This document shows positions 2 through 62,234 of a stretch of 64,000 nt of DNA, piece by piece (position 1 is the first letter of the stretch; every line of letters begins with the position of its first letter). Origin of the DNA: an uncultured Clostridia bacterium. GTDB taxonomy: Bacteria; Bacillota; Clostridia; Oscillospirales; Ruminococcaceae. The stretch lies in contig CANQXX010000005.1 in the NCBI GenBank assembly GCA_947627905.1, forward strand, positions 6,925-70,924, given 5' to 3'. Position numbers and translations under genes: made by a program. The notes under the pieces are model-generated. The model was given only the letters and a program-made list of their open reading frames with translations, was not told the DNA's origin and did not search any database.

Positions 2-3000
2 AAAACCGACAAAACATATTTTAATTCTTCGCTTAACGTACAATCTACGGGTACAAATCCTAAAAATGACGGACTGTATGAGCTTGTAAAAAGCGACGTG
101 ACTAATATAAACGGCACATATATTTTCACAAACATAAAGTATGATAAAGAAAACGGAACAGAATTTATCTATCATGTAAAAAATCCTGATGAGGACACTT
201 ATGATTTAACATCAATGGGGGATAAGGCACCGAGCACAAGACCTAATTATGGCCATTATTATCTTTATTATCCGATACAGAATGTATACGGTAATGAAAT
301 ACAGCGTTTTACTGTTGGCGGAACAGGTGTAGATCTTGATACAGCAGTAAACGGTCAGGGATATGTCAAGGACACTATAACCGCTATAGATGTAGGGTAC
401 AATTATGTCTCCACGGGTTATGACATAAAGCTGCAGAAAGAATGGAAAACGGACGGCGCCGGCGATCCGGATGTCGTGTACTATGATCTGTCATATTCTA
501 CCGCGAAAAATTCCAACGGACAGCATTATAAAACATACAGTATTTCTGCGGCTGTCGGCTGGCTTAACGCTCAGAATATAAACAACCCTCCGGCTGAGAT
601 AGACGGAGAAGCAGTAACCGATTATTATGTAGCTGCGGAATATTATTTCAAGGGCGGCTACCTGTTCAAGCATGTGTTTGAATATGAAAACGGCAAATAC
701 GGCGAACTTTCCGGCAAAACATATTATTATAATGATAAGCCCGGCGTGATCGCGGATATCCGTGATCTTGGTGACATAAACCACGACGAAATTGTAGACG
801 CAGAGGATCTCAGCGCAATAGGTGACGCTCAATGGGCGGAGTATGTCTTTGGCACAACGAAACTGGGCAGCGGCGACGGTGTAAAGCCTTACCATGCTGC
901 CGTTGATAAAAACTTTGTTGAGGGCAAAACCGATGTTACGATAAAGGTAGTAAATTCCTCTGAGGAAAAGCCGGCAAGTATTGAAGTATACAAATATTAT
1001 GACAATCTTTATAAGGAAGGAACAGAGGATATAATAGATGATTCCAACGCTCTCCGCGGCGCTACTTTCCGACTTTACAAGAATACGGAAGAAGAGGTAA
1101 AAGCCGGTCTTGCTCCCGACGCAACAGCCGATGCTAAAAAGAAACTTGAGGAAGTTGAAACGGAAACTACCCGTATAAACGGACGGTATATTTTTACGGG
1201 TCTTGATCCGAAAGAAACATACACTCTCCGTGAGCTGTTCTCTCCTGTAGGTTATCGTATAACCAACGAATACACGGAGATAACTTCGGGTATGTTTGAA
1301 AAAAACAACAATAAGGTAACGGTGTATGTTCCGAATACTCGTGTTGAGGAAGGATTTTACATTCGTAAAAGGTTAAGCGGAAGAATCTGGGAGCCAAGTG
1401 ACACATTTTCTTTCACTATGACAATGAATGAAGGCGAGAGCGGTTACCAACAGGGTACAGGCAACACTGATGTCAATGATATCTTTGAAAATAGTACTGA
1501 CAATCTTAATAATGCGGTAAACACGTTCAGAACAGATTTTAACAGCACATATAAAACAGTTACTATAAACAACGATACGCCTTTCTATACATATGATGAT
1601 GAAACGGGCAATCATATCAGCGCCGACACAAAGGCTGCTTCGCTGCTTGTAAGTGACACCGCGAGCAAAGGAAGTGATGTTGCTGCAACTCTGAACGGCT
1701 TGCCATTTCCTGCTGCCGGTGAATATACATTCACCATAAAGGAAGAAAATTGCACTGATAAAAATATTACGGGATCTGCCGCTGAATATCAGGTAACATT
1801 TTCGGTTACCCGTAAATATAATTCCGATGTTGAGGAGGGTACTACTCCTGCTATAACCGAGAAAAATACACACCTTGCAGCCGAGGTTTCAAGAATACTG
1901 GTGAAATATTCTCCTGGAGGAGCATTTGAGGATTATGCGTCAACAATGCCTATGTTCACAAACCGGTATACGGCTTCTGCTGAACAGAGCGCAAGCTATG
2001 TGATATCTAAAAATCTCGAAGGCCGTGAATGGCTTGAAGATGATGCGTTTACATTTAAGATAAGCACTACCGATGATACTACAATTGCTGCTTTAACAAA
2101 TGGTAATTTTATTGTACAGTCAAAACGTGGCAGTGAAACTTTGGAGACTATTCTCGGAAAAGATAAAGACGACCCCGGAGAAGCAAAAACGGAATATACG
2201 GGTACAATAAGTGCAGCAGACGGCAAAATAACCATTGACGAGCTGAACTATGAGAATGTTTCTTTCCCTGTAGTTTACGTTAATGGCGATGGTGTAGAAT
2301 GGACGGGTGAGGAAGATCCTTCTGCTAAACAAATACAAGACGGTGGTTGGAAACGCGTTACAAAGCCGGTAACTTATGTTCTTGATATTGAGGAGATAAT
2401 TCCTGCGGAGACAAATGGAATAAAGTATTCAAGCGAAAAATATCAGTTGAAAATAACCCTTAAAAATGCTTTGAATGATGAAGGCGAGATAGACGGTGAA
2501 ATTGACGATATAGAGCTTGAGCTTTACTATATTCCGGAAACAGGTAAAGCATCGCGCTTGATAGGGCGGTGTACTATTATTAATGGTAAACAGGAGCACA
2601 ATAATAAGGCTCATGCTATACTTTTCACAAATATATATGAAGCTGAACTTTATTGGAGCCCCTCTATCAATAAATATATATCGGGCAGAGAATGGGACGA
2701 ATTTGATGAATTTGCATTTTCAATTGCATGTACAAGTGCCAATAAAGCCGATGTAAATGTGGTGCAAGGTGCACGGACAGTTACTATCAAAAATAGTTCC
2801 ACCGGTGGAAGTGACTACAGGACAGGTAAATTTGGTTGGGCTGAATTTACCAAGCCCGGTAAATATACCTTTGATATCACAGAAACAAATAATATTGAAG
2901 AACGCGGATTTGTTAAAAAAGTCATAACGACTATCTATGTTGAGATAAAGGATGATAATAAAGGCAAGCTGACGTTCATTGAATATCCTGACGGATTTGA

Positions 3001-6000
3001 TAACCCTGATACAAAGAAGGAGGTAGATATAGAAGAGTCTTCCGAAGGTCAAAGGTATTTATCAACATCATACAATATTACAAACCAATATAAAGACGAC
3101 CCTGATACTACATATTCCTTTGACATCAGCAAGAAACTCGACGGCAGAAACTGGGCGTCGTCGGATATCTTTACCTTTGAACTTACTCCCAATGATGAAG
3201 CAACAAAGAATGCTGTTGATAGCGAGTATATCAAGCTGCCGGCTGATTGGACAAAAAGCGGTGATAAATATACAGTTACTGTAAATTCGGCAGACCCAAA
3301 AAATGTCAGCATTGCTTTCCCGAAGTTTGACGACAGCAGCAACAATGATCCTAAAAATTATACATTTACCCTTTCGGAACAGTCCGGATCCGGAAATATG
3401 GATTATTCCAAAGAGAAATATACGCTGACCTTTACCGTAAAACGTAACAGACACCAAGAGTCTGTAGATGACGGAACAAAAGAAACTTATCTTACCGGTA
3501 AGATTGATGTTGATCTGTCCGTAACTAAATCAGGCGCGGAAGAGGTCTATAATTCAACAGATACTTCTGGAACGTTTTCTGCTACGTTCACCAACTCTGC
3601 TTATGCAACAGATGAATTTAAAGTAAGCAAGAGCTTTTTCGGCACATGGCCGACCAGCAAATCATTTGAAGCAGTAATTAAGCGTACCGATACAAACGGC
3701 GGAAAGGTGACCATTGACGGAACAGAAATTGCTGCCAGCAAATCAACAACAATAGAATTTACAGAGGACGATAAAGTTAAAACTCCCGAAATAAAATTCT
3801 ATGAGGAAGGTACTTATACATTTGAAGTTAAAGAAACAGCACCGGCACCATTGGCAAAGGAGCCTATTGATTATGACAGCAGCACTTATACTGTTACTGC
3901 AAAAGTAACGGATAATGGATCAGGAAGTCTGAATGTAGAATACGAGATCGACGGAAAAACCGGCAATGAAGTAAAAATTGAAAACGCAGCTGTAGGAAGT
4001 CTTTCCGTTACAAAGGCAGTGGAATGCAATAAACCCGGCGTTGATGTTCCGACGGATAAGGAGTTTAAGGATAAGGAATTTACTATTAATGTTGCGCTGA
4101 CACTGCCTGAAGGTCTGCCTGAAAGGTATCTGAATAGTTCTGCATACTCGGTTACCAGTATTGACGGTATAGAAGGATCTTCTATCGGAGACGTTAATAA
4201 AAGCAGCCGTACATTTACAGTAACCCTCACGCTGAAAGCCGGTCAGACAGCAACGATAAATCATCTTCCCACAGGTACAGCGTATAGCATTACGGAAGAA
4301 GGACCTGTATTCAGCTTTACACCAAAAGATCAGACGATCACGGGAGATGTAGTTGTCAATGAAACTACCAGTGAATACAAGGAAACTGTTACCAATATCT
4401 ACAATGTCAATGATATAACAATTTCCAAGAAAGTCCAAAAAGAGGACAAATCTGACATTTCCGGCGAAGATGATACCGAGTTCAGTTTCAATATCACATT
4501 GAAAAACGGCGAAGCTCCTCTTGACGATTATATCTATACCAGTAATGAGGATGTTACATGGAATGAACCGCATGACGGAACAGGTACATTTACAATTACA
4601 CCGAAAAAATCTATAACGCTGAAAAATATCCCATACGGCGCAACATATTCAATAGAGGAGACCGGTGATTATGCCGGATATGTAAAGGAAACAGTACCGG
4701 TTTCAGGAACGGTCGGCGGAAGTGCTCTGGATGTAAAGTTTGTAAACACCAAGCTTGCCACACATGATCTCACTATTGAAAAGACTGTTGACAGCACAAT
4801 GGCAGCGGATCTTGAGCAGAATTTCAAATTTGATGTAACTCTTACTGCGCCGGACGGAACGATATTTGATGATGTTGATGAATACACAGCTGTTTCCGGT
4901 CTGACAAGAAGCGCTGACGGCAAAACTATAAGCGGAATTATTACCCTTGGTAATAAAGGAACCGCAACAATAGCGGGACTTCCCAATGGAACGGTATATA
5001 CAGTCGAGGAACAGGATACTTATGACGAGAAACTTGTATCTTCCGTTTCAAGCGACTATGACGAAGCCGAAGGAAAATTGGACGATAACAAGACCGTTAA
5101 ATTTGTCAATACACGCCAAAAAGGCAGTCTGACTATTTCCAAGACGGTCGAATCAGCCGATAGCGGCTTTGACAAGGACAGCTACAGTTTTGAGTTTAAG
5201 GTAAAAGTTGAGGGTATTGACACTGACCGCGAATATCCTATAGAAAACTATTCTACCAATAAAGTTACATTTGACAAAGAAAAAGAAACAACATTATACC
5301 TCAAAGACAAAGACATTGTAACTATAGGGGAATTGCCGGACGGCGCGGCATATACAGTGACCGAAGAAGGCAACGCAAATTACTTCACGCTTGTTAACGG
5401 AGAACTTATTGACAGTGAGTCCCCAAAAGCGGCAGCGGGAAATATAGTTCCGGGAACACCGTCAGAGGTTGATTTTGTCAATATTTACGACAAACAGCCC
5501 ACAAAGGAACTTGACCCGGATATTTCCAGCGTTCAGGTCGGAGATGAAATTAACTATTCTATAAAATGGTATAACAACAGCAAAGATACAGCAAACGTTA
5601 CTATCACCGACACTCTGCCGGCTCAGCTTGATTATGATAAAGCAGAAGTGATCGGAGCCGGATCTTCAGGTTATGATATCCAAGTTAAAGGCAACGAAAT
5701 AACATTGACGCTGAAAGGCTGTGCCGGTCTTTCCAGCGGTACGGTAAAGGTATTTGCAAAGGTCAACGAAAAAGCTGCGAAATCCGGCTTTACAAATACT
5801 GCAGCGGTAGAAGTCGGCAAAAATGAATATACGGTAAGCTCCAAAACTATTGGCGCGGCTGAAATTGGCAATATCAAGATATCCAAGAAGGCCGCAGGCT
5901 CTCTTGCCGACAAGAACCAATATTTCACCTTTAAGATAACGGAAGCAGTAGATAATAGCGGCACTCCGCTGACCGGCACATACAATTATACGGGCGGCAA

Positions 6001-9000
6001 AGAGGGAACGGGAACGTTTGATTTCTCCACTACAGACTCTCTTACGTTTGAGCTTAAAGACGGCGATAGTATTATCATTAATGCTTTGCCGGCAGGAGCA
6101 AAGATAACCGTTGAAGAAAAAAAAGAAGAAGGGACTGCGGCTGCGGATTATGTTACTTCCGTAAAAGAGATCCCCGATAAAGTAACCGCAGTTTCCGACA
6201 ATATTGCCAAACTGACGGTTGTCAAGAGTACAGATACCGAAGCTGCTTTCACCAACAGGAAAGACGGACTAAATACAAAGAGCATTGATAAGACTAAGCT
6301 GACAGGCGATCATGTAAGTGTAGGCGATACTATACCCTATGTTATCACATGGAACAACAACAGTGAATATAAAGCAGACGTTACTATCACCGATACACTG
6401 GCTGATGGTCTTGAAATTGTCAGCCATGAAGAACCGGAAGGTGAAACAGATAAAGAAGTGACATATGAATATATTCCCGAAACAAACACGGCTAAATGGA
6501 CATTGAAAGGCAGGGAAGCAGGCGAAAAGGGAGAAGTGCGTCTTACCGTTAAGGTAAACGAAGCCGCGGTAAAATGGGACGGAAAAAATACTGCTTCAAT
6601 AACCGTAAATTCAAATGAAGATAAAGTTTCGACGGAAGATGAAGATATTGTATATGTCAAAAAAGGCAATATAAGTCTGACAAAGAGCGTGACCGGTACG
6701 GAAAAAGCTTCCGAACTTGGCAGGTATTTTGCATTTACTATCGATGCAAATACAGCCTACAATGCAGCTACAGGCAGCGTACCTCTTAGCGGAAGCTATG
6801 ACTTTACGGGAACAATGGGTAAAAAACTCGGCAGCGACGATACCATTACCGAAGTTACGGACGGAAAAATAGAGTTTAAATCGGGAAAGGCGGAGATATT
6901 CCTTAAAGCCGGACAGAGCATAGAGATCATTGGACTGCCCGCAAACGGTGACGATAAACATAAAGACTTTACGATCACAGAAGCGGAAGTACCGGGATAT
7001 ACTGTATCTATAACTCCGGAGCCTGACGTCACAGCAGACAGCAGGACATACAGCGGAAAAGTGCCTGTTGGCAATACTGCGAATATAGTTTATGAAAACC
7101 ATAAGCTGGAAGAACATGATCTTACCATACTTAAGGTAGTGGCCGGAAAGAACGGAAACAAATTGCGCTCATGGAACTTTAAGGTTGAACTGACCGCCCC
7201 GGAGGGAACTGTATTTGCTAAGACATACACTGATACATACAAAGTTACCAAAGGTAATTTTGAATGGACCGGTCTGTCCGATGACGAAACAAAGCTGACA
7301 GGCAGCTTCAGTCTTGTGAGCGGCGAGAGTTTGATCATAAATGGACTGCCGGAAGGTACGGTATATGATGTTATTGAGAATGGTCTTCCCAAAGACTATG
7401 AGGTAAGCGCTGAAATATCAGGAAAGAAAGCTACACTTGCGGAATCTGACGGTCTTGCTGTAAATACGGCAAAGCTTTCTGATAGCAAAACCCTTGATCT
7501 TACTCTTGATGATGACAAGAGTGTCATCATTACCAATGAAAGTCCTATTCCGGAAGCAGGCGAAGGCAGATACAGCCTTACAAAAAAGGTAACAGGCGTA
7601 GGCTTAAAGCCTGATGATATGGACACCGAGTGGCATTTTGATCTTCAATTTGGAAATATGGACGCAAAAGATTATGACTATACAAAACTTGATATTTCAG
7701 CCAGTGATCCTAAGATAATTGAAGAGGGCATAATATCTTTAGGCAGCGACGGAAAGATCACATCTATCAAAGTAAAAGATTCGTCAGGAACGTTCACTGT
7801 GCAGCCGGATAATAAGATTACCCTGAAAAACTCTCAGATCATAACCATTTACCGGCTGAAAGCAGGAGAAACCGTAACGGTTTCAGAAGTTGGAGACCTG
7901 AACGGTTATGAGACAACATTCACTCAGTATACTGCTCCTACCAGAGCGGCGTCTGCAGAAGAAGCGGCAAAGGATTATACTGTGACTGTTCCGAATAAGA
8001 GTGACGTTGTGGTAACCTGCACAAATAAACGTCTGCCCGGAAATCTTAATATAACGTCGGAGGTAGAAAACGAAGGCGGCGATACTATTGATGATAAAAC
8101 AGAATTTGAATTTGACATTACTCTTACAACTGAGAAACCGTTAGATTCTGACGTATGCGCACAATTCAAGGATATTAAATGTGAAGAAGTAGACGGCAAA
8201 TATGTATATACCTGCACGGTGACCGGACGGGAATTTAATTTCAGCGGTCTGCCGGACGGCACAGAATATACCGTTGAAGAACATCTTGCTCCGGGCTATA
8301 AGTTCAAGAACGGAATAAACAGATATGAGGGTACTATAACAGCCGGCGAAACATCTTCAGCACCTTTCGTCAACATAAAGATCAGCGAAGCAACTCTTAT
8401 AGTGACTAAGTTGCTCGATAGCAGCATCACAACTGACAGCGACAAGGCCTTTACTATCCGGATATATCTTACAGCGCCCAAGGATACTATCCTTGCCGAT
8501 AAATATTCCTATACGGTAAGTCCTTCAGATGAATACTCAGACGTCCGTACTCTCACAAAGGTAAGCGGCGATAAATGGGAAGGCAATTTCAATCTCATAC
8601 CCGGTCAGACGGCGACGATAAGCGGTCTGCCGCAAGGCACATTCTTTGAGATAAGCGAACCTTCAGCAGACGGATTTGATCCGGATATCTCGCGGAATAA
8701 AGCTGTCCTTGATAAAAAAGAAAATGAGGTAACTATCACAAACAGGAGAAAGACAGCCGATCTGACGATATCCAAGAAGATATCTTCCGACAGCGAGCTG
8801 ACGGCAACGGATAGGGCGATCCCGTTTGAATTTGAAATAGGACTTGGCGCCGGAACTACAGGACTGGATATTAAAGATATCGACGGCACATATGGATATG
8901 ACGGAACATATTCAGGAACGGTAACGTTCAGCGACGGAAAGGTGACCGGATCTACAGGCGAGCATTCACCGTTCGGAAAAGACGGCAAGCTCACTCTGAA

Positions 9001-12000
9001 ACACGATGAGAGCATAGAAATTAAGGGTCTGCCGGTTGGAACATATTATACCGTTAATGAAGTATCGGCATACAGCGGATATACTCCGGAGACCGGTCCA
9101 TTCAATGGCTATATTTATGAGCTGCCGAAAAATAATCCTGCCGAATCGTCTGAAAATAATCTTGCCGCATTTGTAAATAACAAGAATGTCGGCACACTGG
9201 AAATATCCAAGAAGGTAGTTCATTCCGACGGAGGAGAGCTTAGCGGCGGCAGCACGGAAGACAATTTTGTATTTGATGTTTATATGTCTATCACTCTGCC
9301 GGACGACACTAAGCTGCCGCTCTCAGGAACGTTCGGAGACTATACGTTTGAAAACGGACACGCTGCAATAACTCTTAAAAATGGCGGAACAGCCGTTATC
9401 AGCGGAGTGCCTTTCGGAACTGATTATTTGATAGAAGAAGATCTGAGCGGCAAGGGAGGCATATACACTTCAACAGTTACGAGCGGCAATGATAGCGGTC
9501 AGATCAACAATGATACAACACCGGTAAAGGTTGAATATGTCAACAAAAAGAGCGTAGCAAGCCTGAAAGTCACAAAGACTGTAGAAAATGCCGATACAAA
9601 CATCAGTACGATAGACAGCAACAAGGACTTCAGCTTTACTCTTACGCTGACAAACAGCAATGTATCAGTTGCAGGAACGTATAAGACCGACAAGGGAGAA
9701 ATAATTATTGATAACGGCGGCGTCGGAACATTTACGCTGAAAGACGGCGAAAGCCTGACAATTTACGGTATCCCGACAGGAACATCGTACACCGTTCAGG
9801 AAGCTGCTGACGCTGATTATAACGTAAAGATCAACGGTATAAGCGACGAGGACGGCAGCAGTGAGGGAATGATATCTTCCGACAGCACTGTAGCATTTAC
9901 AAACGTCAAGAAATCGGCAGTGCTTACGGTTACCAAGGAGATAACCTCTGAAAATGAAATTACCGATGACGACAAGCGTATCCCGTTCAAGTTCACCATA
10001 GAACTTGAAGTGCCTGTAAATGACGGAACGGAATATAGAGGACTTGACGGAACGGTAAGAGCAGAGATCAAAAGAGTAAACGGAGGTCTTTCCGAGTCTG
10101 AAGATCTTGTATTTGACGGAGGTTCATGCAGCACCGAAATAACTCTTCACCATGGAGACAGTGTAAAACTTATTGATATTCCCATTGGAACAAAATACAC
10201 AGTCACTGAGACGACTAAAGATCCGGGATATACATATACACCGGACGAAGCAGACGGAAAGATAAGCGGCACGGTCGAAAAGGAAGAGAATCTGAAATTC
10301 ATAAACAAGAAAGTATCAGGTTCTCTGACCATATCCAAGACGGTGAATAATTCCGACGGATCGCCGCTCAGCAGCAGTACGGCGGAAGAAAAATTCGACT
10401 TTGGCGTTAAATTAACCGATGACGGAATAACGTTCAACACGGCAACGGTAAGCATAAACGGAGAAACGGCAACTCCGATCAAAGCAGGTACAGACGGAAA
10501 GTTCCATATACCGCTTGGAAACGAAGACCGCGCAGTATTTACGGATATTCCTGTCGGAACTCATTATGAGATAACCGAAGATCTGAGCGGCAAGGACGGA
10601 TATGCTTCTCCCGAAGTCAAAGACAACAATGCTAATTCAAGCATCAATGGCGGCAATGTAAGCGGAGATATCGACGGAACATCATCGCCGGTACAGGTAG
10701 AATACATCAATACAAAGAATGTAGGAAGCCTGACGATTACAAATACCGTTCAGGTATCCGACGGTTCTGCACTTAATGATACCGATAAGGAGCCGTTTGA
10801 ATTTAGTGTCTTACTTGGTTCAAAGGCAAGAGCCGCTGCCGGATATGAAAATGAATATCAGGCATATATAGGCGAAAAGGGAAGTTCAGCAGCGTCTGAT
10901 GTCAATGCTTCGGTATCGTTTAACGCTGACGGAACGTTAAAGAGCGTTACTTATTACAACGGAACTGAGGAAAGTTTCGTCAAACTCAGCCACAATATGG
11001 AAATAACCATTTACGGCATACCTCTGGATATGGGCTATCAGGTAACTGAGACGCAAAGACCCGGTTATACCATGTCTGCGGTCGGCGATAACGGAACTAT
11101 TTCCGCTGATAGTATAGCAAACTATATAAATATCAGATATGTAGGCAGCCTGACGGTAACAAAGACAATAGTAAATTCCGACGGCTCGGAAGTAACCGAG
11201 GACCAGAAGAATGAAAAGTTCGATTTTGAAGTAAGGTTCTACACAACTGACGCAAGCGGAATCGAGACGGAATATGACAAACAGACATTTGAACTTGGTC
11301 ACGACGGAACAATTACATTTGACAGTATCCCGGCGGGAATGAGTTACACGGTTTCCGAGACTGACAGCAAGGGTTACTCAAGTTCCGGAGATGTAAGCGG
11401 AATTATCAAAAAGGATACCGAAGATACCGTAGCATTTATAAATACTTTTGAAGTTCCTGAACTCGGAAGTCTGACGGTAACAAAGACAGTAGTAAATTCC
11501 GACGGATCGGAAGTAACCGATGACCAGAAGAATGAAAAGTTCGATTTTGAAGTAAGGTTCTACACAACTGACGCAAGCGGAATCGAGACGGAATATGACA
11601 AACAGACATTTGAACTTGGTCACGACGGAACAATTACATTTGACAGTATCCCGGCGGGAATGAGTTACACGGTTTCCGAGACTGACAGCAAGGGTTACTC
11701 AAGTTCCGGAGATGTAAGCGGAATTATCAAAAAGGATACCGAAGATACCGCAGCATTTACAAATACTTTTGAAGTTCCCGAACCCGGCAGCCTGACAGTA
11801 ACAAAGACAATATTAAATTCCGACGGCTCGGAAGTAACCGATGACCAGAAGAATGAAAAGTTCGGCTTTGAAGTAAGGTTCTACACAACTGACGCAAGCG
11901 GAGCCGAGACGGAATATGACAAACAGACCTTTGAACTCAGTCACGGCGGAACAATTACATTTGACAGTATCCCGGCGGGAATGAGTTACACGGTTACCGA

Positions 12001-13255
12001 GATTGACAGCAAGGGTTATGCAAGTTCCGGAGATGTAAGCGGAAGAATAGATAACGGTGCGGCAGTGATGGCAGAATTTATAAACACCAATGAGGTAACT
12101 TCGCTGCCCGATACAGGAAGCCTTACGCTGACAAAACATGTCAATGTCCTCAGCGGAACGCCTGATCCGGAAGATACGTTTACGTTTTCAATAACTCTGG
12201 TATATCCTGACACAACTTCCGAAACGCGTGAGGCCGTTCTTCACGGCGGAGAAAGCACTATCATTGAGGATATACCTACAGGAACGGCATATACGATATC
12301 CGAGATATCAATGCCCGGCGGATATGCTGCTCAGGATATGATAACAGGAAACGTTAATGGAGACATAACAGAAATATTTGTCAATAACTTCGGCAGCAGC
12401 ACCGATCCCGATGATCCTCCGGATATTCCTACACCTCCTCCCGGACCTCCGGAACATATTGATCCTCCGGAACCGCCAAAGACAGATGAACTTATTATTC
12501 ACAAAGATGTAGTTGACGCAGGCGGCAATGACATCAACAGTGAGAATAAGGACAGCTTCGAGTTTGTTGTGGAGATATTCAGAATGGACGGAGATTACGC
12601 ATTAGGTTCATTTGAATACACCGGAACGATGGGTTCTTCCGGAAGCGTATCCAGCGGAGGAAAGATCACACTTAAAGCCGGAGAGACTGTAACGATTGAA
12701 GGTATACCTGTCGGATACGGCTACAGAGTAAGGGAAGTCCTTCCGGAAAGCGGAGAATACAAAGTAAACGGAAGTATAAATGTATCCGGAACTATAGTGG
12801 ATCACCGCGCAAATGAAGTTGACTTTGAAAACCTGTATACTCCTAAGGAAAAGCCTGAAGATCCAGACAAGTCCGCAGCAGAAGATCCGGACGATACCGA
12901 CAATATTGATCCCGATGATGCTGTTGGACCTGACGATGATGACGCTGCCAATGACACGGCAGAAACTGAAACGTCTTATGAATCAGCAGATTCCGGCGCG
13001 TCGGCAAGCTCGGAAGAAGATGAACTTCCGGACGATGAGCACAAGGATATTCCGGAATATCCGGACGACGCAGAGGAAGCAAAAGAACCGGAAGAACTCG
13101 AAGTTCCGGACAAAACCGATGCAGACGGAGATATACCCTATGAGCCTGAAGCTCAGGAAAATCCTAAGACCGGAAATACTTCTCCCGCATCTGCAATATT
13201 TGCAATGCTTGCTTCGGCGGCAGCTATGATGTTCACAAGGAAGAAAAAGAAATAA
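2..13255 (+). CDS. giant cell-wall-anchored surface adhesin, 5'-truncated by the window edge (about 4,417 aa visible)
   Basis: Frame 2 has no stop from nt 2 to the TAA at 13253-13255. The GTG at 98 used by the ORF track is therefore internal. The translation shows FctA/Spy0128-like pilin-isopeptide-style modules (e.g. 'DAFTFKISTT', 'GKYTFDITETNN', 'KNYTFTLSEQSG'). It also shows two DUF11-like repeats ('VGDEINYSIKWYNNSKDTANVTITDTLP', 'VGDTIPYVITWNNNSEYKADVTITDTLA'). About 20 Cna-B/SpaA-like units each open with G-x-L-x-[IV]-x-K-x-V. The protein ends with a Pro-rich linker, a D/E-rich tail, NPKTG, a hydrophobic helix and RKKKK. Confidence 0.9.
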   Translation, partial: KTDKTYFNSSLNVQSTGTNPKNDGLYELVKSDVTNINGTYIFTNIKYDKENGTEFIYHVKNPDEDTYDLTSMGDKAPSTRPNYGHYYLYYPIQNVYGNEIQRFTVGGTGVDLDTAVNGQGYVKDTITAIDVGYNYVSTGYDIKLQKEWKTDGAGDPDVVYYDLSYSTAKNSNGQHYKTYSISAAVGWLNAQNINNPPAEIDGEAVTDYYVAAEYYFKGGYLFKHVFEYENGKYGELSGKTYYYNDKPGVIADIRDLGDINHDEIVDAEDLSAIGDAQWAEYVFGTTKLGSGDGVKPYHAAVDKNFVEGKTDVTIKVVNSSEEKPASIEVYKYYDNLYKEGTEDIIDDSNALRGATFRLYKNTEEEVKAGLAPDATADAKKKLEEVETETTRINGRYIFTGLDPKETYTLRELFSPVGYRITNEYTEITSGMFEKNNNKVTVYVPNTRVEEGFYIRKRLSGRIWEPSDTFSFTMTMNEGESGYQQGTGNTDVNDIFENSTDNLNNAVNTFRTDFNSTYKTVTINNDTPFYTYDDETGNHISADTKAASLLVSDTASKGSDVAATLNGLPFPAAGEYTFTIKEENCTDKNITGSAAEYQVTFSVTRKYNSDVEEGTTPAITEKNTHLAAEVSRILVKYSPGGAFEDYASTMPMFTNRYTASAEQSASYVISKNLEGREWLEDDAFTFKISTTDDTTIAALTNGNFIVQSKRGSETLETILGKDKDDPGEAKTEYTGTISAADGKITIDELNYENVSFPVVYVNGDGVEWTGEEDPSAKQIQDGGWKRVTKPVTYVLDIEEIIPAETNGIKYSSEKYQLKITLKNALNDEGEIDGEIDDIELELYYIPETGKASRLIGRCTIINGKQEHNNKAHAILFTNIYEAELYWSPSINKYISGREWDEFDEFAFSIACTSANKADVNVVQGARTVTIKNSSTGGSDYRTGKFGWAEFTKPGKYTFDITETNNIEERGFVKKVITTIYVEIKDDNKGKLTFIEYPDGFDNPDTKKEVDIEESSEGQRYLSTSYNITNQYKDDPDTTYSFDISKKLDGRNWASSDIFTFELTPNDEATKNAVDSEYIKLPADWTKSGDKYTVTVNSADPKNVSIAFPKFDDSSNNDPKNYTFTLSEQSGSGNMDYSKEKYTLTFTVKRNRHQESVDDGTKETYLTGKIDVDLSVTKSGAEEVYNSTDTSGTFSATFTNSAYATDEFKVSKSFFGTWPTSKSFEAVIKRTDTNGGKVTIDGTEIAASKSTTIEFTEDDKVKTPEIKFYEEGTYTFEVKETAPAPLAKEPIDYDSSTYTVTAKVTDNGSGSLNVEYEIDGKTGNEVKIENAAVGSLSVTKAVECNKPGVDVPTDKEFKDKEFTINVALTLPEGLPERYLNSSAYSVTSIDGIEGSSIGDVNKSSRTFTVTLTLKAGQTATINHLPTGTAYSITEEGPVFSFTPKDQTITGDVVVNETTSEYKETVTNIYNVNDITISKKVQKEDKSDISGEDDTEFSFNITLKNGEAPLDDYIYTSNEDVTWNEPHDGTGTFTITPKKSITLKNIPYGATYSIEETGDYAGYVKETVPVSGTVGGSALDVKFVNTKLATHDLTIEKTVDSTMAADLEQNFKFDVTLTAPDGTIFDDVDEYTAVSGLTRSADGKTISGIITLGNKGTATIAGLPNGTVYTVEEQDTYDEKLVSSVSSDYDEAEGKLDDNKTVKFVNTRQKGSLTISKTVESADSGFDKDSYSFEFKVKVEGIDTDREYPIENYSTNKVTFDKEKETTLYLKDKDIVTIGELPDGAAYTVTEEGNANYFTLVNGELIDSESPKAAAGNIVPGTPSEVDFVNIYDKQPTKELDPDISSVQVGDEINYSIKWYNNSKDTANVTITDTLPAQLDYDKAEVIGAGSSGYDIQVKGNEITLTLKGCAGLSSGTVKVFAKVNEKAAKSGFTNTAAVEVGKNEYTVSSKTIGAAEIGNIKISKKAAGSLADKNQYFTFKITEAVDNSGTPLTGTYNYTGGKEGTGTFDFSTTDSLTFELKDGDSIIINALPAGAKITVEEKKEEGTAAADYVTSVKEIPDKVTAVSDNIAKLTVVKSTDTEAAFTNRKDGLNTKSIDKTKLTGDHVSVGDTIPYVITWNNNSEYKADVTITDTLADGLEIVSHEEPEGETDKEVTYEYIPETNTAKWTLKGREAGEKGEVRLTVKVNEAAVKWDGKNTASITVNSNEDKVSTEDEDIVYVKKGNISLTKSVTGTEKASELGRYFAFTIDANTAYNAATGSVPLSGSYDFTGTMGKKLGSDDTITEVTDGKIEFKSGKAEIFLKAGQSIEIIGLPANGDDKHKDFTITEAEVPGYTVSITPEPDVTADSRTYSGKVPVGNTANIVYENHKLEEHDLTILKVVAGKNGNKLRSWNFKVELTAPEGTVFAKTYTDTYKVTKGNFEWTGLSDDETKLTGSFSLVSGESLIINGLPEGTVYDVIENGLPKDYEVSAEISGKKATLAESDGLAVNTAKLSDSKTLDLTLDDDKSVIITNESPIPEAGEGRYSLTKKVTGVGLKPDDMDTEWHFDLQFGNMDAKDYDYTKLDISASDPKIIEEGIISLGSDGKITSIKVKDSSGTFTVQPDNKITLKNSQIITIYRLKAGETVTVSEVGDLNGYETTFTQYTAPTRAASAEEAAKDYTVTVPNKSDVVVTCTNKRLPGNLNITSEVENEGGDTIDDKTEFEFDITLTTEKPLDSDVCAQFKDIKCEEVDGKYVYTCTVTGREFNFSGLPDGTEYTVEEHLAPGYKFKNGINRYEGTITAGETSSAPFVNIKISEATLIVTKLLDSSITTDSDKAFTIRIYLTAPKDTILADKYSYTVSPSDEYSDVRTLTKVSGDKWEGNFNLIPGQTATISGLPQGTFFEISEPSADGFDPDISRNKAVLDKKENEVTITNRRKTADLTISKKISSDSELTATDRAIPFEFEIGLGAGTTGLDIKDIDGTYGYDGTYSGTVTFSDGKVTGSTGEHSPFGKDGKLTLKHDESIEIKGLPVGTYYTVNEVSAYSGYTPETGPFNGYIYELPKNNPAESSENNLAAFVNNKNVGTLEISKKVVHSDGGELSGGSTEDNFVFDVYMSITLPDDTKLPLSGTFGDYTFENGHAAITLKNGGTAVISGVPFGTDYLIEEDLSGKGGIYTSTVTSGNDSGQINNDTTPVKVEYVNKKSVASLKVTKTVENADTNISTIDSNKDFSFTLTLTNSNVSVAGTYKTDKGEIIIDNGGVGTFTLKDGESLTIYGIPTGTSYTVQEAADADYNVKINGISDEDGSSEGMISSDSTVAFTNVKKSAVLTVTKEITSENEITDDDKRIPFKFTIELEVPVNDGTEYRGLDGTVRAEIKRVNGGLSESEDLVFDGGSCSTEITLHHGDSVKLIDIPIGTKYTVTETTKDPGYTYTPDEADGKISGTVEKEENLKFINKKVSGSLTISKTVNNSDGSPLSSSTAEEKFDFGVKLTDDGITFNTATVSINGETATPIKAGTDGKFHIPLGNEDRAVFTDIPVGTHYEITEDLSGKDGYASPEVKDNNANSSINGGNVSGDIDGTSSPVQVEYINTKNVGSLTITNTVQVSDGSALNDTDKEPFEFSVLLGSKARAAAGYENEYQAYIGEKGSSAASDVNASVSFNADGTLKSVTYYNGTEESFVKLSHNMEITIYGIPLDMGYQVTETQRPGYTMSAVGDNGTISADSIANYINIRYVGSLTVTKTIVNSDGSEVTEDQKNEKFDFEVRFYTTDASGIETEYDKQTFELGHDGTITFDSIPAGMSYTVSETDSKGYSSSGDVSGIIKKDTEDTVAFINTFEVPELGSLTVTKTVVNSDGSEVTDDQKNEKFDFEVRFYTTDASGIETEYDKQTFELGHDGTITFDSIPAGMSYTVSETDSKGYSSSGDVSGIIKKDTEDTAAFTNTFEVPEPGSLTVTKTILNSDGSEVTDDQKNEKFGFEVRFYTTDASGAETEYDKQTFELSHGGTITFDSIPAGMSYTVTEIDSKGYASSGDVSGRIDNGAAVMAEFINTNEVTSLPDTGSLTLTKHVNVLSGTPDPEDTFTFSITLVYPDTTSETREAVLHGGESTIIEDIPTGTAYTISEISMPGGYAAQDMITGNVNGDITEIFVNNFGSSTDPDDPPDIPTPPPGPPEHIDPPEPPKTDELIIHKDVVDAGGNDINSENKDSFEFVVEIFRMDGDYALGSFEYTGTMGSSGSVSSGGKITLKAGETVTIEGIPVGYGYRVREVLPESGEYKVNGSINVSGTIVDHRANEVDFENLYTPKEKPEDPDKSAAEDPDDTDNIDPDDAVGPDDDDAANDTAETETSYESADSGASASSEEDELPDDEHKDIPEYPDDAEEAKEPEELEVPDKTDADGDIPYEPEAQENPKTGNTSPASAIFAMLASAAAMMFTRKKKK
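11144..12106 (+). repeat. 3 x 321-nt (107-aa) in-frame tandem repeat inside the adhesin gene
   Basis: Units start at 11144, 11465 and 11786 ('GSLTVTKT[IV][VIL]NSDGSEVT.DQKNEKF.FEVRFYTTDASG'). Units 1 and 2 differ at 5 of 107 aa by my count. Unit 3 diverges towards its end. Confidence 0.9.
13160..13252 (+). other. C-terminal sorting signal: NPKTG, hydrophobic segment, RKKKK
   Basis: Translation reads 'NPKTGNTSPASAIFAMLASAAAMMFTRKKKK*'. NPKTG is encoded at 13160-13174. Confidence 0.8.
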
Positions 13256-14597: not shown

Positions 14598-14605
14598 TAA
14601 GAGTG

Positions 14606-14634
14606 TTGAGAGTTAAGAGTTGAGATATTATAAT
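14606..14634 (+). promoter_or_regulatory. promoter-like module built from GTTGAGA heptads (copy L1)
   Basis: -35 TTGAGA (14606-14611), exactly 17-nt spacer, -10 TATAAT (14629-14634). It starts 9 nt after the M20 stop codon. The same module recurs at 62071-62099, and a degenerate inverted copy lies near 42174-42204. Confidence 0.5.
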
Positions 14635-14639
14635 TTAGC

Positions 14640-14980
14640 GTACTAAACGAAAGAAAATTATAGCTGGTCGAGCTGAGCCCAGCTCGCGGGGTCGAGGGGC
14701 AGAGCCCCTTGTCGCCGTCCGCAGACGGCGAAATTCCCCTTAAAAAGAGCTCCGCAAGGGTGTGAATAAAACGACGCAAGCGTCGTCTAAGCCGCTTTAG
14801 TGGCTTCAAGAGGGGGCTGCCCTGCGATAGAGGGCGCCCCCTTGGCACTAACGATTACTATAGTTTAAGCCTTGCCAAACAGCCCAGTGAGCTGTTTGGC
14901 AACATAGAACACTAAACAACTAAACAAAAGAAAATAATAGCTGTTCGTGATTAGCTCACGATCAGCTATTATTTTTTTTT
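14640..14980 (+). ncRNA. candidate structured ncRNA or structured repeat element, copy 1 (family not recognised)
   Basis: It lies between the promoter-like module and a strong terminator, with no ORF carrying a ribosome-binding site. Hairpins seen:
- 14669-14686
- 14693-14711
- 14713-14730
- 14771-14786
- 14789-14806
- 14811-14842
- 14872-14902 (12-bp stem)
The 247-nt core (14658-14904) is repeated at 41918-42144. Confidence 0.4.
14933..14980 (+). terminator. strong intrinsic terminator
   Basis: An 18-bp stem (14933-14950 with 14956-14973, one mismatch), a 5-nt loop, and a run of about 10 T's. Confidence 0.8.
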
Positions 14981-15027
14981 ATTTGTAAAAAAAATTTTGC
15001 CTTTTCAACAAATTTGTTGTTTAATAC

Positions 15028-40939: not shown

Positions 40940-41512
40940 TCAGAAAGATATCACTCCAAGATGTTCAAGCAGGATCTTCGTTCCGATAAGTATCAGGATA
41001 ACTCCTCCTGCGATCTCGGCTTTATTTTTGTATTTTGCGCCGAAGCGGTTGCCAATAATAACTCCGCCGAGGGAAAGCGCAAAGGTCGTAACGCCGATAA
41101 TAAGTATCGCAAAGAAAATGCTTACTTCAAGGAATGCAAAGGTTATTCCTACTGCAAGGGCGTCAATGCTTGTTGCTATCGCGAGCATGAAAAGCTCGCC
41201 GATTTTCAGGGAATATTCCGTTTCCTCGTCATCGTCCTTTTCGTGCAGGGCGTCGAAAATCATTTTCCCGCCGATAAAAAGCAGCAGAACAAAGGCTATC
41301 CAGTGATCGAAGGCTTCGATATACTTTGAAAATCCGGAGCCGAGCAGGTAGCCGATAAGGGGCATAAGCGCCTGAAATCCGCCGAAAAACAGGGCGATAA
41401 TATAAGCGTGTCCGAGGTTTAATTTCCGCATATTAAGACCTTTGCAGACGGAGACAGAAAACGCGTCCGCAGAAAGTCCTATGCCTATCATAAAAAGTTC
41501 AAAAAATCCCAT
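40940..41512 (-). CDS. mntP: manganese efflux pump MntP family protein
   Basis: 'IGIGLSADAFSVSVCKG' and a second half 'IATSIDALAVGITFA' show the DUF204 duplication. The ATG at 41512 has GGAG upstream. The ORF-track extension to 41632 is non-homologous. Confidence 0.85.
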   Translation of the reverse strand: MGFFELFMIGIGLSADAFSVSVCKGLNMRKLNLGHAYIIALFFGGFQALMPLIGYLLGSGFSKYIEAFDHWIAFVLLLFIGGKMIFDALHEKDDDEETEYSLKIGELFMLAIATSIDALAVGITFAFLEVSIFFAILIIGVTTFALSLGGVIIGNRFGAKYKNKAEIAGGVILILIGTKILLEHLGVISF

Positions 41513-41679
41513 AGCGTGAACGTCTCCTAATGTGTTAAATGTCCGATGCGAATTACAGCTTGTCAATTTAAATTTATGAAAGATATCCTGTTTATATGCA
41601 GGAATTTTATCGGGATAAGTGTCATTGCTCATATCCTGCGGGATATGGGATTTGTCCGGTAAACCGGATTTCTTGATTT

Positions 41680-41708
41680 ATTATACCATGAACATTGCAG
41701 AATTGCAA
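41680..41708 (-). promoter_or_regulatory. sigma-A-type promoter of mntP
   Basis: On the minus strand: -35 TTGCAA (41703-41708), 17-nt spacer, -10 TATAAT (41680-41685). The leader is about 160 nt. Confidence 0.65.
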
Positions 41709-41766
41709 GCACAGAAGAATTATAACAAAAGGTGGGTTTTCATTTATATTTTTTCAATGTACAGAT

Positions 41767-42183
41767 AAATGATAATTTGCGGGGAAGCCCCCGCGGGCTT
41801 TGTCACCCCCAAAGTAAGTTGAAATAGTAAACCGTTTGAACGTGTAGCCCCCTCAAGGGGGCGGGTATGTTTGGTGTTAAGCCTTTAATATCTAAAATTC
41901 TCAACGCTTAAAAAATATTATAGCTGGTCGAGCTGAGCCCAGCTCGCAGGGACAAGGGGCAGAGCCCCTTGTCGCCGTCCGCAGACGGCGAAATCCCCCT
42001 TAAAAAGAGCTCCGCAAGGGGTGAATTGAAGCCGCTTTAGTGGCTTCAAGAGGGGGCTGCCCTGCGATAGAGGGCGCCCCCTTGGCACTAACGATTACTA
42101 TAGTTTAAACCTTGCCAAACAGCCCAGTGAGCTGTTTGGCAACACAGATAAATAAATTTGTGCTTCCCCGCAAATTATCATTT
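41767..42183. repeat. 417-bp unit bounded by perfect 22-bp inverted repeats, containing copy 2 of the hairpin-array core
   Basis: AAATGATAATTTGCGGGGAAGC at 41767-41788 has its exact reverse complement at 42162-42183. ACAGATAAAT occurs at both 41761-41770 and 42144-42153. Confidence 0.85.
41918..42144 (+). repeat. hairpin-array core, copy 2 (same orientation as 14658-14904)
   Basis: It aligns with copy 1 with 5 substitutions by my count. There is also one ~20-nt indel with a few changes around it; copy 1 carries an extra ACGACG-CAAG-CGTCGT hairpin there. Confidence 0.9.
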
Positions 42184-42222
42184 AGCTCAACACTCAACTC
42201 TCAACACTCAACCCTTGTTATA

Positions 42223-42258
42223 TAAAAAACCGCCCGTGCCTTTCAGGACACAGGCGGT
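42223..42258 (-). terminator. intrinsic terminator of gap
   Basis: A 10-bp stem (42229-38 with 42249-58). Its single non-Watson-Crick position is a G-U only on the minus strand. TTTTTT follows on the minus strand. Confidence 0.75.
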
Positions 42259-42280
42259 CTGTATTATTTCTTTAAGAAAC

Positions 42281-62062: not shown

Positions 62063-62070
62063 GTATAGTG

Positions 62071-62099
62071 TTGAGAGTTGAGAGTTGAGATATTATAAT
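62071..62099 (+). promoter_or_regulatory. promoter-like GTTGAGA-heptad module (copy L3)
   Basis: -35 TTGAGA (62071-62076), 17-nt spacer made of GTTGAGA units, -10 TATAAT (62094-62099). It is nearly identical to 14606-14634. Confidence 0.5.
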
Positions 62100-62144
62100 T
62101 TAGCGGGGGCTTCCCCTCAAATGTAAAAAATCGTCAGTTCCCGC

Positions 62145-62173
62145 TTGACAAAGGGAATAGGCTTTAGTATAAT
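62145..62173 (+). promoter_or_regulatory. sigma-A-type promoter of the Hpt gene
   Basis: -35 TTGACA (62145-62150), 17-nt spacer, -10 TATAAT (62168-62173). Confidence 0.65.
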
Positions 62174-62234
62174 TAAAATAATGCCGGATATTTTTAAAAC
62201 ATATACAGAATGTGCTTTAAAAAGGAATGATCTT

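What the first reader, a model, noticed from the sequence alone, without database searches (positions are those of the whole stretch)
41761..42215. Second copy of the hairpin core enclosed by perfect 22-bp inverted repeats (MITE-like, or a long-range RNA closing stem)
AAATGATAATTTGCGGGGAAGC (41767-41788) is exactly reverse-complemented at 42162-42183. The two enclose 417 bp in total, made up of:
- about 130 nt unique to this locus, with extra GC hairpins at 41785-41800 and 41846-41861;
- a degenerate inverted GTTGAGA-ATTTTAGA motif at about 41893-41910;
- the 227-nt core shared with 14658-14904.

ACAGATAAAT occurs at both 41761-41770 and 42144-42153. The second copy lies inside the right inverted repeat, so the pair is not a classical target-site duplication.

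Outside the right repeat sits an inverted GTTGAG-heptad array (42185-42215). Read on the minus strand it gives TTGAGA, 19 nt, GATAAT, which is a poorer promoter than at the other two loci.

The element sits between the divergent mntP promoter and the gap terminator. The 22-bp repeat could be the termini of a non-autonomous mobile element. If the plus strand is transcribed, it could instead be a closing helix of a ~420-nt ornate RNA.
Basis: seen in the sequence. Interest (0 to 1): 0.65.

Follow-up and report, generated by a model that had tools for sequence, protein, structure and literature searches.

The report
Promoter-flanked copy of high-copy structured repeat
The inverted repeat is real, but it brackets one copy of a non-coding, strongly folded repeat that occurs many times per genome in gut Clostridia and matches no Rfam family; the two arms are most likely copies of the repeat's own promoter piece, not a stem of a larger RNA.

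Summary
A perfect 22-bp (really 23-bp) inverted repeat lies at 41766-41788 / 42162-42184. It encloses a ~120-nt leader and a ~230-nt core shared with 14656-14904.

The core belongs to a large family found in gut metagenomes:
- 144 covariance-model hits in 0.78 Mb of fetched loci.
- About 50-110 copies in one 2.4-Mb isolate-like assembly.
- No Rfam match, no conserved neighbouring gene, and random orientation relative to genes.
- A 5' domain whose helices are strongly supported by covariation.

Of 134 copies, only this one and a rabbit-gut MAG copy (L003) have long arms. The closing-stem idea therefore has no family support.

The arms are two inverted copies of a promoter-like module: GTTGAGA heptads, a TAAATGATAAT box and the start of a GC hairpin. 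The same module sits, in promoter position, upstream of the core at 14.6 kb and alone at 62.07 kb.

The arm-to-arm unit recurs in L003 with unrelated flanks. Arms are 23/23 identical, the core 96%, the flanks about 50%. Its depth in rabbit metagenomes is 10-300 times that of its flanks.

I read it as a MITE-like, promoter-carrying composite repeat. No target duplication, empty site or transposase was found. An invertible switch remains possible.

The parts
41737..41765 (+). Left outer flank. It holds a TTTTCATTTAT box (inverted partner of ATAAATGATAA) and TTTTTTCAATGTACAGA in the place where other copies carry GTTGAGA heptads.
   Evidence: (I11, I1). L003 has intact heptads at this position.
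41766..41788 (+). Left arm, TAAATGATAATTTGCGGGGAAGC. It comprises a -10-like GATAAT box plus the first half of a GC hairpin.
   Evidence: It is 23/23 identical in L003.
41779..41794 (+). GC hairpin GCGGGG-AAGC-CCCCGC. It competes locally with the long-range arm pairing.
41789..41909 (+). Leader of about 120 nt. It contains a second GC hairpin at 41847-41862 and degenerate inverted heptads at about 41891-41909. It is itself repeated and varies between strains by insertion or deletion.
   Evidence: 86.5% identity to L003. sections 5 and 5c: an X1 contig replaces 41755-41909 with a 38-nt promoter-like stretch. Depth is 140-370.
41916..42004 (+). Conserved 5' domain of the family. H1 is at 41930-41945, H2 at 41952-41972, and H3 with the GAAAU junction at 41971-41994.
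   Evidence: Covariance model R1 scores 73.4 bits, E 1.7e-23, on the + strand only. Covariation is shown.
41916..42143 (+). Core unit shared with 14656-14904. It contains an end-pairing P1 (41916-41924 with 42096-42105), H4 (42026-42049), H5 (42050-42083) and a 3' hairpin with a CCAGUGA loop (42110-42143).
42162..42184 (-). Right arm, the same 23-mer on the minus strand. It breaks off in the hairpin loop, so it carries only a half hairpin.
42185..42215 (-). Array of four GTTGAG(A/T/C) heptads just outside the right arm. They point into the element and give TTGAGA-19 nt-GATAAT on the minus strand, which is the strand of mntP.
14604..14985 (+). Paralogous copy organised as a plain gene. It has heptads with TTGAGA-17-TATAAT (14606-14634), the core (14656-14904), and a long hairpin followed by a T-run (14936-14985).
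   Evidence: 72.5 bits.
62068..62120 (+). Solo module: three perfect GTTGAGA heptads, TATTATAAT, then the GC hairpin GCGGGGGCTTCCCCTC. It lies upstream of the own promoter of an Hpt-domain gene.
   Evidence: The module's depth is 17-20 times that of its flanks.

Best explanation
**What it is.** Positions 41761-42215 hold one composite copy of a high-copy, modular, non-coding intergenic repeat of gut Clostridia.

**The core.** The centre (41916-42143) is a ~230-nt unit. Its + strand folds into a conserved, end-paired, multi-helix structure:
- hairpin H1;
- a three-way junction carrying H2 and H3, with conserved UC / GUC / GAAAU joints;
- H4 and H5;
- a terminal hairpin with a CC-RGU-GR loop.

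The same unit at 14.6 kb is a stand-alone promoter-RNA-terminator gene.

**The arms.** The 23-bp inverted repeat is not part of that conserved fold. It is two inverted copies of the promoter-proximal module used by the family in this rabbit-gut lineage. That module consists of GTTGAGA heptads that supply -35 boxes, a TA(A/T)AT(G/T)ATAAT -10 box, and the start of a GC hairpin at the 5' end of the transcript.
- The left copy faces the leader and core (sense strand). Its heptads have decayed.
- The right copy has intact heptads and faces inward on the minus strand. It would transcribe antisense to the core and on towards mntP.

**How it behaves.** The arm-to-arm segment behaves as one discrete, copied piece of DNA, like a MITE whose inverted termini carry promoter elements.

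**Shown:** the repeat; the module identity of the arms; the family and its covarying structure; the copy number; the recurrence of the whole unit in unrelated flanks.

**Inferred:** promoter activity; convergent transcription; spread at the DNA level by an enzyme acting in trans on the arms or on the folded strand.
For: **Arms are the module.** The same heptads, -10 box and TTT(A)GCG(GGG) sequence occur at 14604-14640, 62068-62120, on the minus strand at 42215-42160, and three times in L003. At 14.6 kb the module scores 11/12 as TTGAGA-17-TATAAT, 22 nt upstream of the core.

**What follows the module in rabbit metagenomes.** It is joined downstream to the sense core several times, to the leader, to the antisense core and to the antisense leader. 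Upstream sequence diverges just before the heptads.

**Unit identity against L003:3756-4197.** Arms 23/23 and 23/23, core 96%, leader 86.5%, flanks 47-54%. A second, partial copy lies at L003:7708-7812.

**Copy number.**
- The element is 100-2500 deep against flanks of 3-24 in eight runs, and contigs end at 41790 and 42155.
- In a 2.4-Mb assembly, unique sequence is about 85 deep and the repeat reaches 9223.

**Family.**
- At least 120 metagenome loci.
- 144 R1 hits in 0.78 Mb.
- H2 is 97% and H3 99% paired; 19 of 20 pairs show double changes; 0 of 500 shuffles reach the observed covariation. In a separate alignment, 16 of 34 pairs are compensatory.
- The + strand is favoured: the mean fold-energy difference is -3.5 kcal/mol, p = 2e-4, with 12 G-U pairs against 4 A-C.

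**Not cis-regulatory and not tied to a gene.**

**Arms are not a family feature.** Only the window copy and L003 have them.
Against: - There is no target-site duplication at the arm ends: AGA|...|GCT in the window and AGA|...|TTA in L003.
- No empty site was seen at this locus in eight metagenomes. Related strains in X7 and X9 carry the element at the same place.
- No transposase or autonomous element shares the arms.
- Heptads are intact on one side only, and on different sides in the window and in L003. This also fits an inversion switch.
- Promoter activity is judged from consensus only. The arm version has a 19-nt spacer.
- The perfect identity of the arms, against 4-14% divergence inside the unit, could reflect RNA pairing or recombinase sites rather than transposase sites.
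Confidence: 0.5

Rival explanations
1. **Invertible DNA switch (inverton).** The 23-bp perfect inverted repeats would be crossover sites for a recombinase acting in trans. The recombinase would flip the 373-bp interior. The GTTGAGA heptads (-35 boxes) stay outside, and each arm supplies a -10 box. Depending on orientation, the fixed promoter would then make either the structured sense RNA or its antisense.
For: - The size and perfect inverted repeats fit known invertons.
- The heptad-plus-arm unit is found joined to the leader end in L003:3756-4197. It is joined to the 3' end of the core in the window and in L003:7708-7812.
- Both kinds of joint appear as loose ends in X1 and X10.
- The arms are 100% conserved while the interior has diverged.
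Against: - Contigs that cross an arm at this locus all have the window's orientation (X7 and X9 on the left, X1 and X5 on the right). No strand-change joint was listed.
- No recombinase gene is evident among the ORFs at 39.5-44.5 kb.
- Weak heptad-like remnants on the heptad-less side suggest decay of a symmetric element rather than flipping.
Confidence: 0.15
2. **Long-range RNA helix.** A + strand transcript that starts upstream of 41766 would pair its 5' arm with its 3' arm. The resulting 22-26-bp duplex would close a ~420-nt RNA, or serve as an RNase III processing stalk that releases the leader and core.
For: - The minimum-free-energy fold of 41761-42190 forms this helix, at -194 kcal/mol with z = -10.5.
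- A weak ATAACA-17-TATATT site at 41722-41750 could start transcription before the arm.
- The arms are perfectly conserved.
Against: - Only 2 of 134 family copies have such arms. The paralogue at 14.6 kb and L001 lack them.
- L003 has a second promoter-like box between the leader and the core.
- An X1 strain variant lacks 41755-41909, and with it most of the left arm.
- The arms show no compensatory or G-U variation.
- The minus strand folds equally well, at -201 kcal/mol. That is what a DNA palindrome would give.
- The local hairpin at 41779-41794 competes for half of the arm.
Confidence: 0.12
3. **Local rearrangement without mobility.** Recombination or gene conversion between dispersed promoter modules would have created an inverted partial duplicate next to an ordinary sRNA gene. 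The L003 copy would then be inherited or exchanged as ordinary DNA.
For: - The modules are abundant and are joined to many different partners.
- The right arm is a truncated module that ends in the hairpin loop.
- There is no target-site duplication.
Against: - The same arm-to-arm unit with sharp borders lies between different genes in a different MAG, and a further partial copy lies 3.5 kb away there.
- The arm bins have the highest depth of the whole element in X1, at 611-757.
Confidence: 0.13
4. **Family-level rival for how the core spreads.** The core would be a non-autonomous derivative of an IS200/IS605-type element (a PATE carrying a guide-RNA-like scaffold), or a REP-like substrate of an HUH enzyme. 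It would move as folded single-stranded DNA. The arms would be incidental.
For: - Copies have sharp ends without terminal inverted repeats and carry subterminal hairpins.
- They are numerous and are oriented at random relative to genes.
- GTAG-type REP-like hairpins lie beside some copies.
Against: - No TnpB-, TnpA- or IscB-like ORF recurs next to any of about 130 copies. The largest neighbour cluster is an ABC transporter in 11 loci.
- There is no Rfam IS605-orfB or HEARO match.
- Strand asymmetry and own promoters speak for RNA.
Confidence: 0.1

Closest known systems
Correia elements (CREE) of Neisseria
   Same: Both are small non-coding repeats bounded by inverted repeats that carry promoter elements. 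Both lie between genes, occur in many copies, and would form a long duplex if transcribed across both arms. (This rests on my own knowledge of the family.)
   Different: Correia elements are 100-155 bp, duplicate a TA target and have no large conserved interior fold. Here no duplication is seen. The interior is a ~230-nt covarying structure that also exists without arms. The arms carry tandem heptads.
BOX elements of Streptococcus pneumoniae
   Same: Both occur in Firmicutes and are modular: a constant module plus variable ones. Both have ends that pair, occur in about 100 copies in a ~2-Mb genome, lie between genes, are transcribed and have an unknown mobilising enzyme. (From my own knowledge, compared.)
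   Different: No sequence relation was tested or expected. BOX is restricted to one species group. The 5' domain here is conserved across many gut Clostridia (human, rabbit, hare, pig, rat and rumen samples).
REP/BIME and REPIN repeats with RAYT transposases
   Same: Both are high-copy intergenic structured repeats arranged as mosaics of modules.
   Different: REPs are 20-40-nt palindromes with a GTAG head. This unit is 110-280 nt with a multi-helix junction. No RAYT was examined. GTAG-type hairpins do occur beside some copies, as a separate repeat.
Putative mobile promoters and invertible promoters (invertons) of gut bacteria
   Same: A promoter-like cassette is found in front of many different downstream sequences. 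Perfect inverted repeats of about 23 bp flank a segment of a few hundred base pairs.
   Different: Neither promoter activity nor inversion has been shown. In classical invertons the promoter lies inside the invertible segment. Here the -35 part lies outside it.
Large or ornate bacterial ncRNA classes in Rfam (raiA, HEARO, ROOL, GOLLD, OLE)
   Same: It is a GC-rich, multi-helix, covarying RNA-like structure in Firmicutes without a known function.
   Different: No Rfam 15 family matches at gathering score or at E<=10. The copy number, at tens to about 100 per genome, is far above those classes, HEARO excepted.

Membership tests
MITE | Terminal inverted repeats | tested here: met
   The inverted repeats are 23 bp and perfect, extending imperfectly to 36 nt at 86%.
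MITE | Target-site duplication flanking the termini | tested here: not met
   No direct repeat abuts the arms in the window or in L003. ACAGATAAAT is internal on the right side.
MITE | Small, non-coding, multicopy, at unrelated sites | tested here: met
   The unit is 419 bp. Its only ORFs are spurious and have no homologues. A copy lies in L003 with unrelated flanks. Depth is 10-300 times that of the flanks.
MITE | Insertion polymorphism (empty sites) | tested here: inconclusive
   No contig skips the whole element in eight runs. One contig lacks 41755-41909 only. Flank coverage is only 3-24x.
MITE | Autonomous IS with the same termini | tested here: inconclusive
   The 22-mer is absent from viral contigs, and the whole 455-bp element has no BLASTN match in plasmid or phage records. 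No transposase lies beside any copy. Genome-wide scans were exhausted.
Inverton | Both orientations of the segment present at one locus | tested here: inconclusive
   Arm-crossing contigs all have the window's orientation. Assembled contigs drop rare variants, and no raw reads were available.
Inverton | Site-specific recombinase nearby | tested here: not met
   The ORFs at 38.5-44.9 kb are an L-aspartate-oxidase-like gene and an amidohydrolase-like gene (judged from their translations only), plus PrmC, MntP and GAPDH (confirmed by Pfam). A recombinase acting in trans cannot be excluded.
Closing helix of a conserved structured RNA | Helix kept, with covariation, across homologues | tested here: not met
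   Only 2 of 134 copies have arms. The arms are invariant, with no compensatory change.
Any Rfam 15 family | Covariance-model score at or above the gathering threshold | tested here: not met
   There were 0 hits in the window. In 12 family loci the only hit was one tRNA. E-value mode gave only chance-level hits.
Riboswitch / cis-regulatory leader | Constant position upstream of, and on the same strand as, the regulated genes | tested here: not met
   Orientation classes were 20/16/13/12. Neighbouring genes are unrelated housekeeping genes.
IS200/IS605 PATE / omega-RNA | Full-length partners with tnpB/tnpA that share the ends | tested here: not met
   No recurrent transposase-like ORF lies next to about 130 copies.
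Retron msr-msd | Adjacent reverse transcriptase gene | tested here: not met
   The flanks are mntP and gap. The family has no conserved neighbour.
Hammerhead ribozyme | CUGANGA between two helices of the three-way junction | tested here: not met
   The joint between H2 and H3 is only GUC. There is no Rfam hit.
Type I-C CRISPR repeat | GUCGC-stem-GCG followed by UGGAUUGAAAU, in arrays with spacers | tested here: not met
   H3 has GUCGC..GCG-AAAU but lacks UGGAUUG. The copies are solitary. No I-C array occurs in 0.96 Mb of loci. The resemblance is recalled from memory.

The most novel reading that the evidence does not exclude
The core would represent an undescribed class of structured RNA-encoding (or single-strand-folded) selfish elements. 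This class is widespread in gut Clostridia at tens to about 100 copies per genome. Its invariant three-way junction (UC / GUC / GAAAU, with a CGCA loop) would be the handle for a conserved host or mobile enzyme. In the rabbit-gut lineage the element would have acquired a heptad promoter and 23-bp inverted repeats that make it an invertible or transposable sense/antisense RNA cassette.
Probability: 0.25. Interest if true: 0.8.

Novelty: new variant of a known kind. Interest (0 to 1): 0.6.

Why it matters
- If the family is indeed undescribed, it is a major unannotated component of many gut Clostridia genomes. It could make up about 1% of a 2.4-Mb genome, and it breaks short-read assemblies at its copies.
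- Its 5' domain has strong covariation, which argues for selection on a folded strand rather than mere repetition.
- The promoter-bearing arms could impose sense or antisense transcription on neighbouring genes, here mntP.
- The family offers a tractable case for an old question: how BOX- or REP-like structured repeats spread and what they do.

Tried and rejected
**Searches that found nothing**
- Rfam at gathering and E-value thresholds, on the window and on 13 family loci: nothing.
- Exact-product look-ups for gap and the amidohydrolase, to find sister strains: not on record.
- Protein search with the spurious antisense ORF, as a way to fish for copies: no hits.
- Plasmid and phage BLASTN: no match.
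- Viral-contig scans. The arm and the core gave 0 hits. The family motif gave 1 hit in 2.9 M contigs. The element is therefore not phage-borne.
- Full-text search for the motif sequence and three keyword searches: no description found. One IStron paper was read and was not relevant.

**Scans that were poorly spent**
- The first genome scan used too long an exact pattern and returned only 3 loci.
- The first metagenome pattern returned nothing.

**Ideas rejected**
- Riboswitch or leader: orientation is random.
- Autonomous element with the 5' domain and 3' hairpin 2.8 kb apart: this was a false lead, a prophage next to an ordinary copy.
- Hammerhead: the core sequence is missing.
- Retron: no reverse transcriptase.
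- Type I-C CRISPR repeat: a partial look-alike only.
- Fur-box-like reading of TGATAAT: not pursued, because the module occurs in many contexts.

**Ideas left open**
- A split-palindrome insertion model for the arms (a 10-bp GC inverted repeat inserted into an AT-rich palindrome). It was considered but could not be tested with three copies.

Full report
**1. The observation**

The 22-mer AAATGATAATTTGCGGGGAAGC lies at 41767-41788. Its exact reverse complement lies at 42162-42183. There are no other matches in the window with up to 3 mismatches, and none in 100 shuffles.

The perfect repeat is 23 bp long and continues imperfectly outwards. The core at 41910-42156 aligns with 14650-14916 at 87.6%, the main difference being a 20-nt extra hairpin in the 14.6-kb copy.

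The flanking genes are MntP and GAPDH, both on the minus strand. The gap terminator is at 42227-42260 and a good mntP promoter at 41708-41680.

**2. What the core is**

No Rfam 15 family matches either copy at the curated thresholds or at E<=10.

An exact 51-mer from the core found three rabbit-gut MAG contigs, L001-L003. These come from human, rabbit, hare, pig, rumen and other gut samples, often with several copies per contig. About seven of these loci are chance matches inside a coding gene.

A covariance model of the 5' domain (R1) finds 144 copies in 0.78 Mb of these loci. It finds exactly two in the window, both on the + strand, with E about 1e-23.

On the model alignment, H2 is paired in 97% of cells and H3 in 99%. 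Nineteen of 20 pairs show changes on both sides. No shuffle out of 500 reaches the observed covariation (0.402 against 0.123), and slid controls stay at or below 0.17.

An independent MAFFT/RNAalifold run on 12 full-length relatives gives 16 of 34 pairs with compensatory changes. It adds a GGG/CCC helix that closes a three-way junction around H2 and H3, and it adds H5.

The strand carrying the motif folds 3.5 kcal/mol better than its complement on average (63 of 92 copies, p = 2e-4). It also shows 12 G-U against 4 A-C mismatches in H2.

Downstream of the 5' domain the family is modular. The modules vary but include a hallmark hairpin, AAAC..UCC-RGU-GGA..GUUU. Units are 110-280 nt long, their two ends pair, and their borders are sharp.

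**3. It is a dispersed repeat, not a cis-regulator or a single-copy RNA gene**

- Neighbouring genes are unrelated housekeeping genes: an ABC transporter, a sensor kinase, PdxK, SerA, a P-type ATPase, PcrA and FeoB. The largest neighbour cluster covers 11 of 123 loci.
- Orientation relative to flanking genes is random, with classes of 20/16/13/12.
- In a 2.4-Mb isolate-like assembly (X27), unique sequence has depth about 85. The 5' domain reaches 4400-9200, which corresponds to roughly 50-110 copies.
- In eight rabbit or gut metagenomes the window's element is 100-2500 deep against flanks of 3-24. Contigs stop at 41790 and 42155.
- RNA libraries from rat and pig gut, sludge and wastewater contain contigs with the 5' domain. 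DNA carry-over cannot be excluded.
- The family is almost absent from viral contigs, with 1 hit. The window's element has no BLASTN match in the plasmid and phage collections.

**4. What the arms are**

Of 134 copies, only the window copy and L003 have an inverted repeat of at least 18 bp spanning the unit. The arms are therefore a lineage-specific addition.

They match a module seen three times in the window and three times in L003. The module has 2-5 GTTGAGA/GTTAAGA heptads, then TA(A/T)AT(G/T)ATAAT, then TTT(A)GCG, often running into a GC hairpin.

At 14.6 kb this module gives TTGAGA-17-TATAAT (11 of 12). It ends 22 nt before the core, which is followed by a strong hairpin and T-run. That is an ordinary small-RNA gene.

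In rabbit metagenomes the module alone is 17-20 times deeper than its flanks. Upstream sequences diverge right before the heptads. Downstream it is joined to the sense core (several variants), the leader, the antisense core and the antisense leader.

The left arm is therefore the -10 and start region of a module whose heptads have decayed here but are intact in L003. The right arm is the same module on the minus strand with four heptads. It breaks off in the hairpin loop and points into the 3' end of the core and onwards to mntP.

**5. The arm-to-arm segment is a unit**

Against L003:3756-4197 the identities are as follows:

| Segment | Identity |
|---|---|
| Arms | 23/23 and 23/23 |
| Core | 96% |
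| Linker | 94% |
| Leader | 86.5%, plus a 22-nt insert carrying another promoter-like box |
| Flanks | about 50%, i.e. unrelated |

A second copy begins 3.5 kb away in L003, with the right arm followed by inverted heptads.

One X1 contig from a related strain keeps the left flank. It replaces 41755-41909 with 38 nt of promoter-like sequence joined directly to the core. The leader is therefore a separate, polymorphic module.

No target duplication, no empty site and no transposase were found.

**6. Weighing the readings**

*Closing or processing helix.* This reading rests only on thermodynamics, and the minus strand shares that property. It is contradicted by several facts. The arms are absent from the family. 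The paralogue is arm-less. A strain variant lacks most of the left arm. The arms show no compensatory change. The probable start site lies inside the arm.

*Inverton.* This reading is attractive because the heptad-bearing side abuts opposite ends of the interior in different copies. However, the few contigs that cross an arm at this locus all share the window's orientation, and heptad-like remnants exist on the heptad-less sides.

*My preferred reading.* I favour a MITE-like composite whose inverted termini are promoter modules (confidence about 0.5). Inversion, an RNA helix and a non-mobile rearrangement are the rivals.

How the wider family spreads is unknown. An HUH- or IS605-type single-strand mechanism is possible, but gene neighbourhood does not support it.

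**7. Novelty**

The composite is a new variant of known kinds of bacterial structured repeats, such as Correia, BOX and REP. The underlying family appears to be unannotated. It is not in Rfam, and four literature searches did not find it. These searches cannot prove that it is undescribed.

Noticed in passing
L009:~9500-10100 and ~4600-5200; also L041, L032, L094 (see alignment): REP-like units, GTAG followed by a GC palindrome (GTAGGGACACGGCGAGCCGTGTCC), lie beside the structured-repeat copies in human-gut contigs, sometimes on both sides. They appear to be a second, independent repeat family.
   Followed up: no
window 41971-41994 and 14711-14734; all family copies: Hairpin H3 with its 3' tail (GUCGC-NN-UC-CGCA-GA-NN-GCG-AAAU) resembles a type I-C CRISPR repeat with UGGAUUG removed. 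The resemblance is recalled from memory. No I-C array was found in 0.96 Mb of loci, and no Rfam CRISPR-DR family matched.
   Followed up: partly
window 41755-41909 (variant seen in run X1): A contig from a related strain has the same left flank but replaces the left arm and leader with 38 nt (TCAACGTACCGATAAATGGTAATTTAGCGCTCTAAATA) joined directly to the core. The leader is therefore a separately gained or lost module.
   Followed up: partly
L075:6884-7262 (-); L030:2242-3165; L094:3660-4216: Copies occur in tandem 271 nt apart (a long and a short 110-nt form), as two identical copies 829 nt apart, and as an inverted pair.
   Followed up: partly
L066:737-965: One copy starts 3 nt after the stop codon of a pdxK-like gene and ends in an intrinsic terminator. 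Prophage terminase and portal genes follow directly, so the copy sits at a prophage junction.
   Followed up: partly
window 41500-41680: mntP has a ~180-nt leader downstream of a good promoter, but no yybP-ykoY riboswitch is detected. The whole 64-kb window has no Rfam hit at gathering score, not even a tRNA.
   Followed up: no
window 98-13255 (+): A single ORF of 4385 aa fills the first 13 kb of the window.
   Followed up: no
window 62068-62180: The solo heptad module lies 40 nt upstream of a second, canonical TTGACA-17-TATAAT promoter of an Hpt-domain gene. That gene may therefore have tandem promoters, one of them repeat-borne.
   Followed up: no
L003:4226-4182 and 7690-7752: In L003 each heptad array is itself bracketed by a short inverted repeat (ATTATCATTTA ... 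TAAATGATAAT). The -10-like box thus occurs on both sides of the heptads, facing outwards.
   Followed up: partly
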